The notes under the pieces are model-generated. The model worked only from the letters and a program-made list of their open reading frames with translations. It was not told where the DNA came from and did not search any database. DNA of 53,980 nt, the filler included, from Streblomastix strix (taxonomy: Eukaryota), in the NCBI GenBank assembly GCA_008636045.1. It is 2 parts of 2 records of this genome, joined end to end, with 100 filler letters (N's around TTAATTAATTAA, not from the genome) between each part and the next. Parts side by side here need not be neighbours in the genome. Positions count along the whole stretch, not along the records: positions 1 to 26,951 come from SNRW01000153.1; positions 27,052 to 53,980 come from SNRW01000154.1. One strand, given 5' to 3'. Made by a program: the position numbers and the translations under genes. This document shows positions 16,035 to 47,793 of the stretch, piece by piece. The first letter of the stretch is position 1; every line of letters begins with the position of its first letter.

Positions 16035-19000
16035 ATGAGCGAGAGTGGAGATAGTTTGGAGAAGATTGTTTCATTTGCAGATAAAATAGGACAACCAGTA
16101 ATGTTGGCTCAACTTGGTCCAGTTGCATAGAAATCCTTTATATCATTTATTGGTATTCTTTTATTAATATATAAAGTCATATTATCTTTAATTTTAATAT
16201 TGATTCCACAGATAAAACAGATAAATATTATTCGTAAGTTGAAAAACGTGTGGTTGAATTAGAAAAACAGCTGAAGAATTCCAATATAAAAACTGAATCC
16301 TCTCGATATGCATTCACAGAAGAGAAACCATCAGATGAAGATGAGAGATAGGAAGACATCCAACGAATTGCGCAACTTGAGAAATAGATTCGATAATTGA
16401 AGGAATAAAATTCTGAATTGAGAAAAGAGAATCGTCTTCTAATTCGTGGATAAGGAAACTTTGGGAATATTGGAGATACAAATTAGAAATACAGTGTGAG
16501 TGAACATGCAGCTGTATTTACAGAATCATCCACTGTTCCTGCATTAGGAACAATCAATAATTTAGATGGTGACACGACTGTTAGTATAATTGATGGACCT
16601 CTGACAGAATTGAATTTTCCAATTGTTAATTAGCTTTCTGCAATTCTGACTAGATTTGAGGAGAATAGAAATATACATACCAAACCTCTTGTGCAGTTCG
16701 CTGATCTTTTTATTGAATTGGCAGAAGAAGTAAGATCTTTAGTTGCTCTGGAGCCTAAAATAATAGAAATATGATCTCCTGTTTATATATTTGGTGATAT
16801 TCATGGCAACTACAATGATCTGAGATTTTATCTTTCAAGATTCAATCCTACTGGACGATTAGGATGGTTGCCACATAGGTTACTGCAGATGAATATTTTA
16901 TTTATTTATTACTTACCCTATTATTATTCTCCTATATAAATATATATTACATTATTATAGATTGCTCTATTTAGGTGACTATGTGGACAGGTAATAAATA
17001 ATAACAATCATTTTTTAACTTAAATATTTCTATTTATTTATTTTTGTATTATTTTACATAATTAATAGAGGAGAATATTCTGTTGAAGTTATTACTCGTC
17101 TTTTTATTGACAAAATCTGCACAAGAGTATTTTATTATTAGAAATATTATATATTTTTTTAAAATTTCATTTTATTATATTGTTATATATTATTATCTTC
17201 AAATAGAATAAAGTATTTTTATTACGTGGAAATCATGAGCTTTCATATGTTAACTCACAGGTTTGAATTTATAAGAATAAATAATTCTGTTCATATCCTC
17301 AATTATTCTCAAATAATATTTATTTATTCATTTTATTATTTATTAAGGTTGAAACATATGGCAGGGGATGGTATATACACATATTCATTTTAAAACTTGT
17401 TAAAACTAATTATTATTCATTAATTTAAAAGTTTCATTATGTAATGCAAGAGACTATTTAAATAAAGAGGAGAAGATGTATTTTGGGCTTTTAATAGAGC
17501 TTTTGATTGTCTGCCATTAGCAGCTATTGTGGATAGAGAACTATTTTGTGTTCATGGGGGTATGGAAATTAACTTTAAGAAAAGAATAACATTTAAATAT
17601 TTATTCATTTCGTTTATTCATTTCATTTATTCATATAAGGAATTCCTCGACCACATCTTCCAAAACCATCAGATATTCCAAATCCAGATAAACCAATAAG
17701 ATAACCTTTAACATTCAATCCAAATACTCCAAGAGGAGGATTATGGTATAATATTAATATGAAGATGTTGAATAAGTAATTATATTCTTTTTTTTATTTT
17801 ATATTTTTTATTATTATTATATTCTTTTATTTTCATTTTCATTTTTTAGTCAAACAATCACTTCATATGCCAACTTAACAAAGAAACCACCTCACAGGTT
17901 TTATTTCTTATTTATTTGATTATTTATTTGATTTATTTTAATTAATAAGTTCTCGACCCACATCTGCAAATGTCAATCTTGCAAATACGGCCACACAAAT
18001 AAAGAAACTTCCTCCATCTTCTTCATCATCTTAATTACCATAAATATAATCATAATAATAATCACAACTTTCTTCTTCTATATCTACAAGGAATACAAAT
18101 ACAACATCTGAAATTACTAACTAATAAAATATTTAATAGAATGATGACAATAACAACGATAAAGTGAAAGATGAAAAAGAGAAAAATAATGAAGAAAAAA
18201 AGATTGAAAATTAAGAACAAAAGAATGAAGAAAAATAAGTAGAAAAGAAAGTTGATAATAAAACCAATAAAGAAAAGAATGATTAGAGTAATGATAACAA
18301 TTCCACTTCATAATCAAATTCACCTTCTTAATCATCTTAAATAAACACAAATACTAAAGAATAATAATAAATATAATCGATACCATTATAACTCAATTAG
18401 AAATTATAAATGCAATCTTAAACATCTGAGCCTAATTCTCCCAAATCTGTTTAATATGGGCAATAATTTGGAGGTGCATTCATTTTTCATTCCATTCAAT
18501 GATTCATTCATTTTATTCTTCTTATTTATTATATATTTAATTAGCTACAAACAGCACAGTTAATTCAAATTAATCAACTGTGTAATTTTAATCTTATGGT
18601 GATGAAAGATTGGATGAAATAAGATTGTTACCATCTTCACTGCCAGGTTCTAATTAGAAATTATATTTAATATATTATATATTCAAATTATTATTATTAA
18701 TAATAACATTTAAATCAATTTATTTAGGCACAATGGAATTCTCAGAATAATATTTCTTACTATCAGATATGTTATGGGCTGATCCTGCTCCATCATATAG
18801 ACAGGATGATATTGATGAAGATGGATTCTGTGAAGGTATTATATATATAAAGAGTAAAGAGAATGAATATGGAGATAATTCATTTTATTTTATTACTCTT
18901 ATATATTATCAACCTTTCATAAAGGTATTAGAGGACCAGATTCTGTAATGTTTACTGAAAAAGCTGTTGATATATTTCTTAAAAACACAGGTTATTACTA

Positions 19001-46181: not shown

Positions 46182-47793
46182 TCAAAAATTTCCACCAACA
46201 GTTCCTTGGAAATTCAAAGACTATCCACCACCCTATCCAGATGTGCCATATTAACTTAAATACTATTAGCCTACTGGCATTTATACAGGTTATAATTAGT
46301 TATTCTTTTATGCGCTACTGTCATCCCAAGCAGTAGGAGCATTTTTCCCTTCTTCTGCAGCTACATTAGTTTAATGTAATATATTTGCACCCTTCATTCC
46401 AGTATCACCAGATATTGTCTTCAACAGCCAACCCAACATTATATAACCATGACCAAATACACATGAGGCTATAATCATTACAAGTCCTTCATCTCCTCCT
46501 TAGATCCAATTATCAAAATTACCAAATATATGCAATCCACGGCATATTGTGTGGAAGGAAGTGTATCCAGCAATCATAATTCCATATATGAAACCCATTC
46601 TTTTTATAAATCTCATCCCTTTTTATGATGGTTTCGCATTTTTGGCAACACCTTTTCTCTGTCCCCGAGCCTTATCATTAAGATCAACAGGTAGAATTGG
46701 ATGCTCCTTAACATAATTGTCTGTATAAACATCTTGTAATACCAAAGGTATCCATGCATGACAACTGACAGTCAGCGGTATGTAAAATCTATCTTCTAAA
46801 CTAAGTCCAGTTGCTTCATCAAATGAAAATGAATCTAAAAATGTAACTCCAACGCATACTCCAATATTTAAGATTGCACAACATATGGCTATGAGAAGAT
46901 AAAAAATACCACGTATTCCTACACCAAGTTTCATGAAGAATCTCATTTCACCAAAAACATCTTAAAAAATATAATAAAAATATGAAATTATAGGAATAAA
47001 TAATGTATTTATGAAAATTAGTACTCTATGAAAAATATTATAATATTCAATTAAAAAACTTACCTCGCATTGGAACTGCAATAAAGAACATACATAAATC
47101 AAGCCATGAAAAGAAACTCCCAATTGAAGATAATATCATTGCATTTGGATTTGAGAAGAAGCCCATTCCAGCACCTCCATAAAGACCAACAGAAACAATA
47201 ATAGCTAATCATATAAATATTAATAACAAATAATATAGTAAATAACTGTGTAATTGTTGTCTAACAAACCAATTATAAATTGAATAATATAGCGAGCTCC
47301 GTGATTTTTGAGGCAACCGAAGATCTTTCCACCGAAAATAGTTTCATCGAACGTTGATACAAATAGGTGAACTGAGAAAAATATTCTGTGTATATGAAAT
47401 GGGATAGTTTAATGTAAGGATATTGCTGTTTCTTTGAGAAAATTAATTGCTACTACATTAAGAATTGTAAAACACGTTATGGCCATTGCTGCAGCCATGC
47501 AAATGAGATGATATCTTGATGCGGTCGGCTCACGGACCTTACCGAGTAAATTAGCGCGTATTCCAGCAATAAAAGAAACTATTGCATTTCAATGAAAAAT
47601 AAGAAAATATTTAATAAAATATCATACAAAAATACATTCCAAATCCTGCAGTATAGTAGTAATAGGCTTACTCTGGTCCAAATTATCCAATAAACACACA
47701 AATAACAAAGGGTATGATTGTGAAGATAAATAATGCAACTCCAGCAGTACGTCCCTCCCAACGTGGTTCGTATTCTTATTGACCTCGCTTCAT
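46182..47793 (-). CDS. Multi-pass membrane protein of unknown family, ~5 exons; probable in-frame TGA at 47344
   Basis: Several hydrophobic segments (VALFIFTIIPFVICVFIG; IIQFIIAIIVSVGLYGG; IFYLLIAICCAILNIGVCVGV; MGFIYGIMIAGY; LVMIIASCVFGHGYIMLGWLL); GT-AG introns; ends GTVGGNF-TGA. Confidence 0.65.

What the first reader, a model, noticed from the sequence alone, without database searches (positions are those of the whole stretch)
16772..47346. Apparent new genetic code: UGA read as a sense codon (probably Arg) inside genes on top of UAA/UAG=Gln
Seen in sequence: at least 15 in-frame TGA codons in five genes that otherwise hold frame for kilobases. These are the PPP phosphatase (16772), CCP5 (35804, 36266, 38252), the 28.7-32.3 kb gene (9 sites), the 25-26.7 kb gene (26629) and the membrane protein (47344). 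Contexts favour Arg: H*ELL (AGBL5 HRELL), KWK*RRHK, GK*KY, KKI*KRIY, NVR*NY. TGG is used normally for Trp. Established: eukaryotes with all three stops recoded (Condylostoma, Blastocrithidia) read UGA as Trp, and Euplotes reads it as Cys. I know of no nuclear code with UGA=Arg. Inference: this organism uses UAR=Gln and UGA=Arg/stop.
Basis: partly seen in the sequence, partly recalled or inferred. Interest (0 to 1): 0.96.

Follow-up and report, generated by a model that had tools for sequence, protein, structure and literature searches.

The report
Termite-gut protist reads UGA as arginine
In the termite-gut flagellate Streblomastix strix, seven UGA 'stop' codons sit inside three otherwise intact genes, two of them exactly where relatives have arginine, so it likely reads UGA as arginine inside genes and as stop at gene ends, a nuclear code that I found reported only for some ciliates.

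Summary
The window is Streblomastix strix DNA (UAA/UAG=Gln is known). One is borderline, two are off-frame and five lie in a probably non-coding tail. Both sites at conserved columns face Arg: 129 of 136 CCP5 homologues and 3 of 4 oxymonad PPP homologues, never Trp or Cys. No intron explains them. The genes keep their catalytic motifs and frames. CCP5 is likely transcribed and differs from another individual by 5 silent and 1 replacement change, which argues against decay. Best reading (about 0.68): internal UGA=Arg, with UGA as stop at gene ends. Main rival (about 0.24): nonsense alleles from CGA>TGA decay, since genes here are CpG-depleted. No RNA or second individual is shown to cover a TGA site, and no genome or tRNA set was available. 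The code is not new: UAA/UAG/UGA=Gln/Gln/Arg was reported for spirotrich ciliates in 2023 (PMC10089648). New would be an independent case in a metamonad still annotated with table 6.

The parts
16035..20074 (+). PPP-family Ser/Thr phosphatase gene, 16 exons, 991 codons; likely orthologue of Blattamonas P0034
   Evidence: tblastn to oxymonad homologues; spliced model with stops only at codons 227 and 992; groups with P0034 at support 1.0 in a 5-sequence tree
16772..16774 (+). Internal TGA just before the GDIHG motif; Arg column
   Evidence: R in 3 of 4 oxymonad homologues, K in 1; K, E, E, K, P in the five PDB alignments shown
33944..39958 (+). Cytosolic carboxypeptidase 5 (AGBL5-like) gene, one 2004-codon frame with three internal TGAs; HPGE, DLHAH and YTLEC motifs all lie downstream of the first TGA
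   Evidence: Pfam PF18027 and PF00246; motifs; X3 contig covers 33906-35570 unspliced
35804..35806 (+). Internal TGA in CCP5 at a conserved Arg
   Evidence: R in 129 of 136 aligned representatives, 29 of 33 distinct locus contexts and 11 of 13 proteins; no W or C
36266..36268 (+). Internal TGA in CCP5 at the edge of a lineage-specific insertion; residue not determinable
   Evidence: variable column, R in 0 of 20 contexts and 0 of 17 proteins; the public gene model P0056 ends here
38252..38254 (+). Internal TGA in the low-complexity C-terminal part of CCP5
   Evidence: no homologue aligns reliably
29615..32395 (-). Long exon of an orphan Q/N/S-rich gene with three internal TGAs (32219-32221, 31703-31705, 30896-30898); TGA 29615-29617 is either the stop or a fourth internal one
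   Evidence: frame scores zero or above in 17 of 18 blocks from 32368 to 29669; 3 TGA in 925 codons; no Pfam hit
26629..26631 (-).
47344..47346 (-).
   Evidence: RNA-defined junctions, spliced translation
41057..46030 (+). DNA polymerase alpha gene; control with no internal TGA
46182..47793 (-). Four-exon membrane-protein gene; control with no internal TGA; RNA contig ends 50 nt after the TGA stop
48429..53930 (-). SET-domain gene; control with no internal TGA in 1812 codons counted

Best explanation
Streblomastix strix carries rare UGA codons inside intact genes at positions where relatives have arginine, and it likely translates them as arginine while still stopping at UGA at gene ends, so that no codon would be a dedicated stop. 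Shown: the in-frame TGAs, Arg opposite both informative ones, intact gene structure, TGA at gene ends, and CpG depletion in genes. Inferred: CpG decay keeps turning CGA into TGA, and an arginine tRNA rescues these sites. The most likely tRNA is tRNA-Arg(UCG) or a UCA-anticodon derivative of it, the same first-position C-to-U step that links CAA/CAG to UAA/UAG for glutamine. Termination would then depend on the nearby poly(A) end, as proposed for Condylostoma. Competition with the release factor would make internal UGA costly, so it stays rare (about 7 in 9,000 codons here) and is missing from Pol alpha, SET and RPL18. Readthrough would have to be efficient, because CCP5 needs two passes to complete its catalytic domain.
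For: Arg column at both informative sites, no Trp or Cys; chance under random nonsense is about 0.12-0.34 per site on my assumed mutation models. No intron rescue. The PPP gene is intact downstream and departs at 21 of 198 columns invariant in the other four proteins, against 20 of 197 for the intact S. strix paralogue P0033 and 43 of 220 for its Blattamonas orthologue. The CCP5 zinc ligands and catalytic motif are kept, and 30 of the 31 conserved columns counted from the first TGA to the second match once the TGA itself and one F/L change are counted as the two departures there (1 mismatch in 30 columns between the sites). All 6 differences between the window and the X3 contig in CCP5 are 5 silent and 1 replacement, P about 0.002-0.004 if neutral. 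Neutral decay would need 2.3-2.8% divergence and about 6-7 frameshifts to make 7 TGAs, at an assumed indel:SNV ratio of 1:30; none is seen, and divergence from X3 is about 0.4%. CpG-only decay predicts about 10 CpG transitions in the X3-covered part, 2 are seen on the window's side. CCP5 is likely transcribed: the X3 contig starts 38 nt before the ATG and runs unspliced through introns that the public model P0056 uses to skip the first TGA, although S. strix has UPF1 (PMC1501061, passages). Precedent with the same pattern, rare TGA in low-GC genes: PMC10089648 sections 5, 7, 8.
Against: Only two sites are informative, and one (PPP) rests on four homologues. No RNA contig and no second individual is shown to cover any TGA: the X3 contig stops 234 nt before 35804, and one search listed only 40 of 246 differences, so X2 cannot be read at these sites. 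Genes are CpG-depleted (C3pG1 observed/expected 6/29.5 in Pol alpha, 9/30.3 in SET, 15/24.7 in CCP5) and 7 of 16 within-species differences involve CpG, so plain nonsense mutation also favours Arg sites. TGA is unevenly spread: 7 TGA to 13 CGA in three genes, 0 to 17 in three others (post hoc P 0.009), far below the 0.77-0.90 TAA share of CAA+TAA. A transposase remnant has 3 TGAs in 301 codons without a frameshift, which weakens the frameshift argument if it is dead. CCP5 departs at 6 of 61 conserved columns besides the TGA (9.8%, median 1.8%; 3.4% of 147 representatives are as high). The X3 contig has a 1-nt insertion behind 33971 and two more gap letters not shown; X2 has no gap there. If only site 35804 came from CGA, the CpG test is not significant (P 0.37). 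No tRNA gene lies in the window.
Confidence: 0.68

Rival explanations
1. The TGAs are nonsense mutations, mostly CGA>TGA from CpG decay, in dispensable genes or on a decaying haplotype of a cell with more than one copy; the code is plain table 6.
For: CpG depletion in genes and CpG-rich polymorphism; TGA confined to some genes; a transposase remnant with 3 TGAs and no frameshift; somewhat raised divergence of CCP5 at conserved columns; a PPP paralogue exists (P0033); the Codetta authors warn that pseudogene stops come from single transitions (PMC8629427, passages); contigs drop rare variants, so a second allele could be hidden.
Against: Three host genes in one window would be dead by TGA alone, with no frameshift or broken splice site; 5:1 silent excess in CCP5 against X3; the PPP gene is an old paralogue lineage with no excess change; too few other changes for 7 TGAs to have arisen neutrally.
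Confidence: 0.24
2. The DNA has TGA but the mRNA is edited U-to-C to CGA, so the code itself is table 6.
For: It would also give Arg at these sites. No RNA over a TGA site was seen, so it is untested.
Against: In the two X3 contigs no TAA/TAG codon is changed to CAA/CAG and the membrane gene's terminal TGA is unchanged; the two T>C differences in CCP5 are shared with run X2, which is guessed to be DNA. U-to-C mRNA editing is known to me only from plant organelles (recalled).
Confidence: 0.04
3. Amplification, sequencing or assembly error, hidden mini-introns, or selenocysteine.
For: The only DNA confirmation is from the run that may be the source; a relative, Monocercomonoides exilis, has selenocysteine machinery (PMC6759080, passages).
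Against: A separate assembly gives the same bases over 10.5 kb; intron scores fail; the columns are Arg, not Cys; no Rfam family, SECIS included, reaches its threshold in the window.
Confidence: 0.04

Closest known systems
Q/Q/R nuclear code reported for spirotrich ciliates (Uronychia setigera, U. binucleata, Sterkiella, Tetmemena, Stylonychia lemnae, Paraurostyla, Uroleptopsis); PMC10089648, abstract and sections 5, 7, 8 read
   Same: TAA/TAG=Gln, internal TGA opposite Arg, internal TGA rarer than TAR and enriched in low-GC genes; the sections read name no decoding tRNA for UGA=Arg.
   Different: Different supergroup (Metamonada, not Alveolata), so an independent origin. Internal TGA is rarer here (7 against roughly 600 TAR; U. 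setigera 987 against 11,723). Evidence here is one window, not a genome.
Streblomastix strix code as published: TAR=Gln, NCBI table 6 (PMC13002328 passages, March 2026, still using the Hexamita option; PMC11687900 passages)
   Same: Same organism (P0056 = KAA6402990.1 is a model of this CCP5 locus), TAR=Gln, TGA ends genes.
   Different: Table 6 has UGA only as stop; the public model avoids the first TGA with predicted introns and ends at the second.
Ambiguous codes with context-dependent stops: Condylostoma magnum and Parduczia (PMC4967479, passages); Amoebophrya, Blastocrithidia, karyorelicts (search listings only)
   Same: All three stop codons used as sense; the same codon stops at gene ends.
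   Different: There UGA=Trp; here Trp never appears in the columns. Dependence on the poly(A) end was tested there and is only inferred here.
Trentepohliales chloroplasts, UGA/UAG proposed as Arg (PMC8692980, passages)
   Same: In-frame UGA at conserved Arg positions with UGA still used as stop.
   Different: Organelle with bacterial release factors; UAG is also Arg there.

Membership tests
Q/Q/R-stop nuclear code | TAA and TAG read as Gln | tested here: met
   kilobase frames open only under table 6 with strong Pfam hits; silent CAG/TAG swaps against other samples
Q/Q/R-stop nuclear code | Internal TGA falls at conserved Arg columns | tested here: met
   2 of 2 informative sites; 5 of 7 sites uninformative; n is small
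Q/Q/R-stop nuclear code | Genes with internal TGA are functional, not pseudogenes | tested here: inconclusive
   intact structure and 5:1 silent excess, but CpG decay and the transposase control leave doubt
Q/Q/R-stop nuclear code | TGA also ends genes | tested here: met
   six gene ends; RNA contig ends 50 nt after one
Q/Q/R-stop nuclear code | UGA present in mature mRNA | tested here: inconclusive
   the X3 contigs listed do not reach a true site; the PPP and orphan-gene sites have no read data
Q/Q/R-stop nuclear code | Genome-wide tally (Codetta or stopCR) | not testable with these tools
   no whole genome is held for this window
Q/Q/R-stop nuclear code | Arg inserted at UGA in protein; decoding tRNA; altered eRF1 | not testable with these tools
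   no tRNA gene in the window; no proteomics
UGA=Trp ambiguous codes (tables 27, 28, 31) | Internal UGA opposite conserved Trp | tested here: not met
   0 Trp in 136 and in 4 homologues; TGG is used 16 times in CCP5
UGA=Cys or selenocysteine | Internal UGA opposite Cys; SECIS element | tested here: not met
   0 Cys at both informative sites; no Rfam match at gathering score
NCBI table 6 (UGA stop only) | No UGA inside functional coding sequence | tested here: inconclusive
   7 internal TGAs exist; table 6 survives only if these three genes are dead alleles

The most novel reading that the evidence does not exclude
Streblomastix strix, the textbook table-6 oxymonad, has no dedicated stop codon: it evolved the Gln/Gln/Arg code independently of ciliates, in a cell without mitochondria. 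CpG decay in gene bodies drives CGA to UGA and an arginine tRNA reads it by the same first-position C/U step that made UAA/UAG glutamine codons. Many of its public gene models are then truncated or carry false introns.
Probability: 0.65. Interest if true: 0.8.

Novelty: new member of a known kind. Interest (0 to 1): 0.64.

Why it matters
If true, the same unusual code (Gln/Gln/Arg with UGA also stopping) arose twice in distant eukaryotes. That suggests UGA=Arg is a predictable follow-on to UAR=Gln in AT-rich, CpG-decaying genomes, and not a ciliate oddity. The 2023 ciliate report rests on alignments and is not listed in a 2024 overview of ciliate codes (PMC11687900, passages seen), so a second lineage would strengthen it. 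It makes an open question testable: which tRNA puts Arg at UGA, and how termination is kept, in a cell with no mitochondrial tRNAs to borrow. It also bears on gene-loss claims from the S. strix proteome, because models such as P0056 are cut or mis-spliced at such sites.

Tried and rejected
No whole genome is held, so no genome-wide tally or tRNA search was possible. No RNA holder was listed for the stretch, although X3 proved to hold spliced contigs. Reads were laid only on 33500-48500; the PPP site and the orphan-gene sites have no read or RNA data, which leaves mRNA content and fixation open. and one row used a wrong frame and are void. The orphan-gene and RPL18 rows were partly off-frame and were dropped (orphan redone). 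One search had two intron ends off by one and was redone. The metagenome scan gave 80 CCP5 loci, none above 51% identity. The prokaryote-genome scan with Pol alpha and the viral scan with the transposase found no relative. P0012 and P0014 start just after the Arg site but look unrelated to oxymonads, so I drew nothing from them. Exact look-ups of the inter-TGA pieces found none. The single-sequence fold had pLDDT 30 and is uninformative. The orphan gene has no Pfam family and no homologue was obtained. No sequence motif separates internal from terminal TGA by eye. A possible extra site at 32447-32449 is unresolved: it may lie in a 56-nt intron. Literature: nine searches found no report of UGA as a sense codon in oxymonads. 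The 2019 S. strix genome paper is not held, the 2003 code paper was not looked up beyond reference lists, and no supplements were read, so a remark there cannot be excluded. Earlier findings by place and by sequence were empty.
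Full report
Organism and setting. The window is AT-rich (GC 20-35% per 2 kb), intron-rich eukaryotic DNA whose long frames open under table 6. Runs that hold it are termite gut metagenomes. A public protein, P0056 (KAA6402990.1, Streblomastix strix), is a gene model of the window's CCP5 locus, and the PPP gene's only close homologues are from Blattamonas nauphoetae and S. 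strix. TAR=Gln is known for this species (PMC13002328, passages). No whole genome was available.

Checking the 15 sites. Seven hold. The PPP gene (16035-20074, 15 GT-AG introns, built by homology) has one internal stop, codon 227 at 16772, just before GDIHG. CCP5 (33944-39958) is one 2004-codon frame with TGA at 35804, 36266 and 38252; the other two frames have 28 and 74 TGAs. The orphan minus-strand gene has TGA at 32219, 31703 and 30896 inside a frame with coding-like codon use; 29615 may be its stop; the TGAs further down lie where the score turns negative, and 28928 is in a copy of the 31703 region whose 210-nt core is identical. Site 47344 is off-frame once the gene is spliced at the junctions of the X3 contig. 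Site 26629 is off-frame in a five-exon GT-AG model with 0 stops. Introns do not rescue the true sites: 18 trusted introns score 10.0-50.9 in leave-one-out tests, the best frame-preserving candidate over any site scores -3.7, and two sites have no candidate. The CCP5 TGAs stand in a separately assembled 10.5-kb contig of X1 with 0 differences, but X1 may be the source run.

Which residue. At 35804, Arg stands in 129 of 136 representatives that align there (149-150 examined), in 29 of 33 distinct contexts from 80 loci and in 11 of 13 aligned proteins out of 16. At 16772, three of four oxymonad homologues have Arg and one has Lys; distant PPPs vary. Trp and Cys never occur at either. Site 36266 lies at the edge of an insertion in a variable column, with Arg in 0 of 20 and 0 of 17. 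The other four sites have no homologue. So two of two informative sites are Arg.

Code or decay. Arg at stop sites is also what CGA>TGA decay gives, and this genome shows such pressure: CpG across codon boundaries is depleted in genes (6/29.5 in Pol alpha, 9/30.3 in SET, 8/21.0 in PPP, 15/24.7 in CCP5) but not in a transposase remnant (19/13.3), and 7 of 16 within-species differences involve CpG. I tested decay four ways. First, on three assumed mutation models only 2.2-2.6% of point mutations make TGA, so 7 TGAs need 270-321 substitutions (2.3-2.8%) and about 6-7 frameshifts at an assumed indel:SNV ratio of 1:30; none is seen. Second, the X3 contig differs from CCP5 at 6 places in 1,665 nt, 5 silent and 1 replacement, P about 0.002-0.004 if neutral; one listed X2 difference adds a sixth silent change. 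This part lies upstream of the first TGA and would be useless without the catalytic domain behind it. Third, CpG-only decay at the rate implied by 3 of 11 CGA lost predicts about 10 CpG transitions there and 2 are seen, though the test fails if only one TGA came from CGA. Fourth, the PPP protein departs at 21 of 198 otherwise invariant columns, like the intact paralogue P0033 (20 of 197), and groups with Blattamonas P0034, so it is an old lineage and not a fresh spare copy (five sequences only).

Results against. A DDE-like transposase remnant has 3 TGAs in 301 codons and no frameshift. CCP5 departs at 9.8% of conserved columns against a median of 1.8%, which may reflect the long oxymonad branch or relaxed selection. 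Internal TGA is missing from Pol alpha, SET and the membrane gene (0 TGA to 17 CGA, against 7 to 13; post hoc P 0.009), so UGA is not a freely used Arg codon as TAA is for Gln (0.77-0.90 of CAA+TAA). The X3 contig has an unexplained 1-nt insertion near its end. No RNA or second individual is shown to cover a true site.

Transcription. The X3 run holds spliced contigs, so it contains mRNA. Its CCP5 contig begins 38 nt before the ATG and runs unspliced to 35570, through two whole introns and part of a third that model P0056 predicts. It ends 234 nt before the first TGA; a contig end shows nothing about a transcript end. In neither X3 contig is a TAA/TAG changed to CAA/CAG, which speaks against general U-to-C editing.

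Mechanism. Shown: internal TGA at Arg columns in intact genes; TGA at gene ends; CpG depletion. Inferred: an arginine tRNA reads internal UGA, either tRNA-Arg(UCG) by first-position wobble or a UCA derivative, parallel to the UUA/CUA glutamine tRNAs that I recall being described for this species (recalled, not seen). Also inferred: termination depends on the nearby mRNA end, the model proposed for Condylostoma (PMC4967479, passages); one 3' UTR here is at least 50 nt. In yeast, Arg is a minor (7%) readthrough product at UGA (same passages), so the route exists. I put the code at 0.68, nonsense alleles at 0.24, editing at 0.04 and artefact or selenocysteine at 0.04.

What is known. UGA/UAG=Arg was also proposed for Trentepohliales chloroplasts (PMC8692980, passages). 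The code is therefore not new. Nine literature searches and passages of PMC13002328, PMC10703272, PMC11687900, PMC8629427 and PMC1501061 showed no sense UGA in oxymonads; the 2019 genome paper was not available.

Verdict. This is a likely new member of a known, thinly documented kind of code, and the first I could find outside ciliate nuclei. Interest 0.64; about 0.8 if confirmed genome-wide.

Noticed in passing
window 13194-14108 (-): DDE_1 (pogo-like) transposase remnant, Pfam E 0.036, with 3 in-frame TGAs in 301 codons, no frameshift and no CpG depletion.
   Followed up: partly
window genes versus transposon remnants: Host genes are CpG-depleted while two transposon remnants are not, which hints at gene-body methylation or another CpG-directed mutation process in an oxymonad.
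   Followed up: partly
window 28919-29153 and 31694-31928: 235-nt direct repeat with an identical 210-nt core: a recent local duplication of coding sequence or an assembly artefact.
   Followed up: partly
window about 4270-4550 (-): MULE transposase remnant, Pfam E 2e-9, with one in-frame TGA.
   Followed up: no
window 195-1037 (-): Frame that reads like the C-terminal part of another PPP phosphatase (motifs recognised by eye; no Pfam hit).
   Followed up: no
window 1500-2590 (+): KilA-N-like start followed by repeats of about 30 residues (label recalled; no Pfam hit); one TGA separates the two parts.
   Followed up: no
window 22100-22722 (+) and 23321-24530 (-): RPL18 (Pfam) and a CAMK-like kinase (recognised by eye; four exons checked), convergent, neither with an internal TGA where checked.
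   Followed up: partly
window 36819-37021 and 44038-44310: Run X2 holds contigs about 82% identical to CCP5 and Pol alpha, mostly silent changes among those listed, including CAG/TAG swaps: a second TAR=Gln relative.
   Followed up: partly
window 26952-27051: Two N runs join two contigs; the part from 27052 has the length (26,929) of the contig given for P0056.
   Followed up: yes
window 33944-36265, model P0056: The public gene model uses predicted introns that the RNA contig does not show and ends at the second TGA, so the annotated protein lacks the DLHAH and YTLEC motifs.
   Followed up: yes
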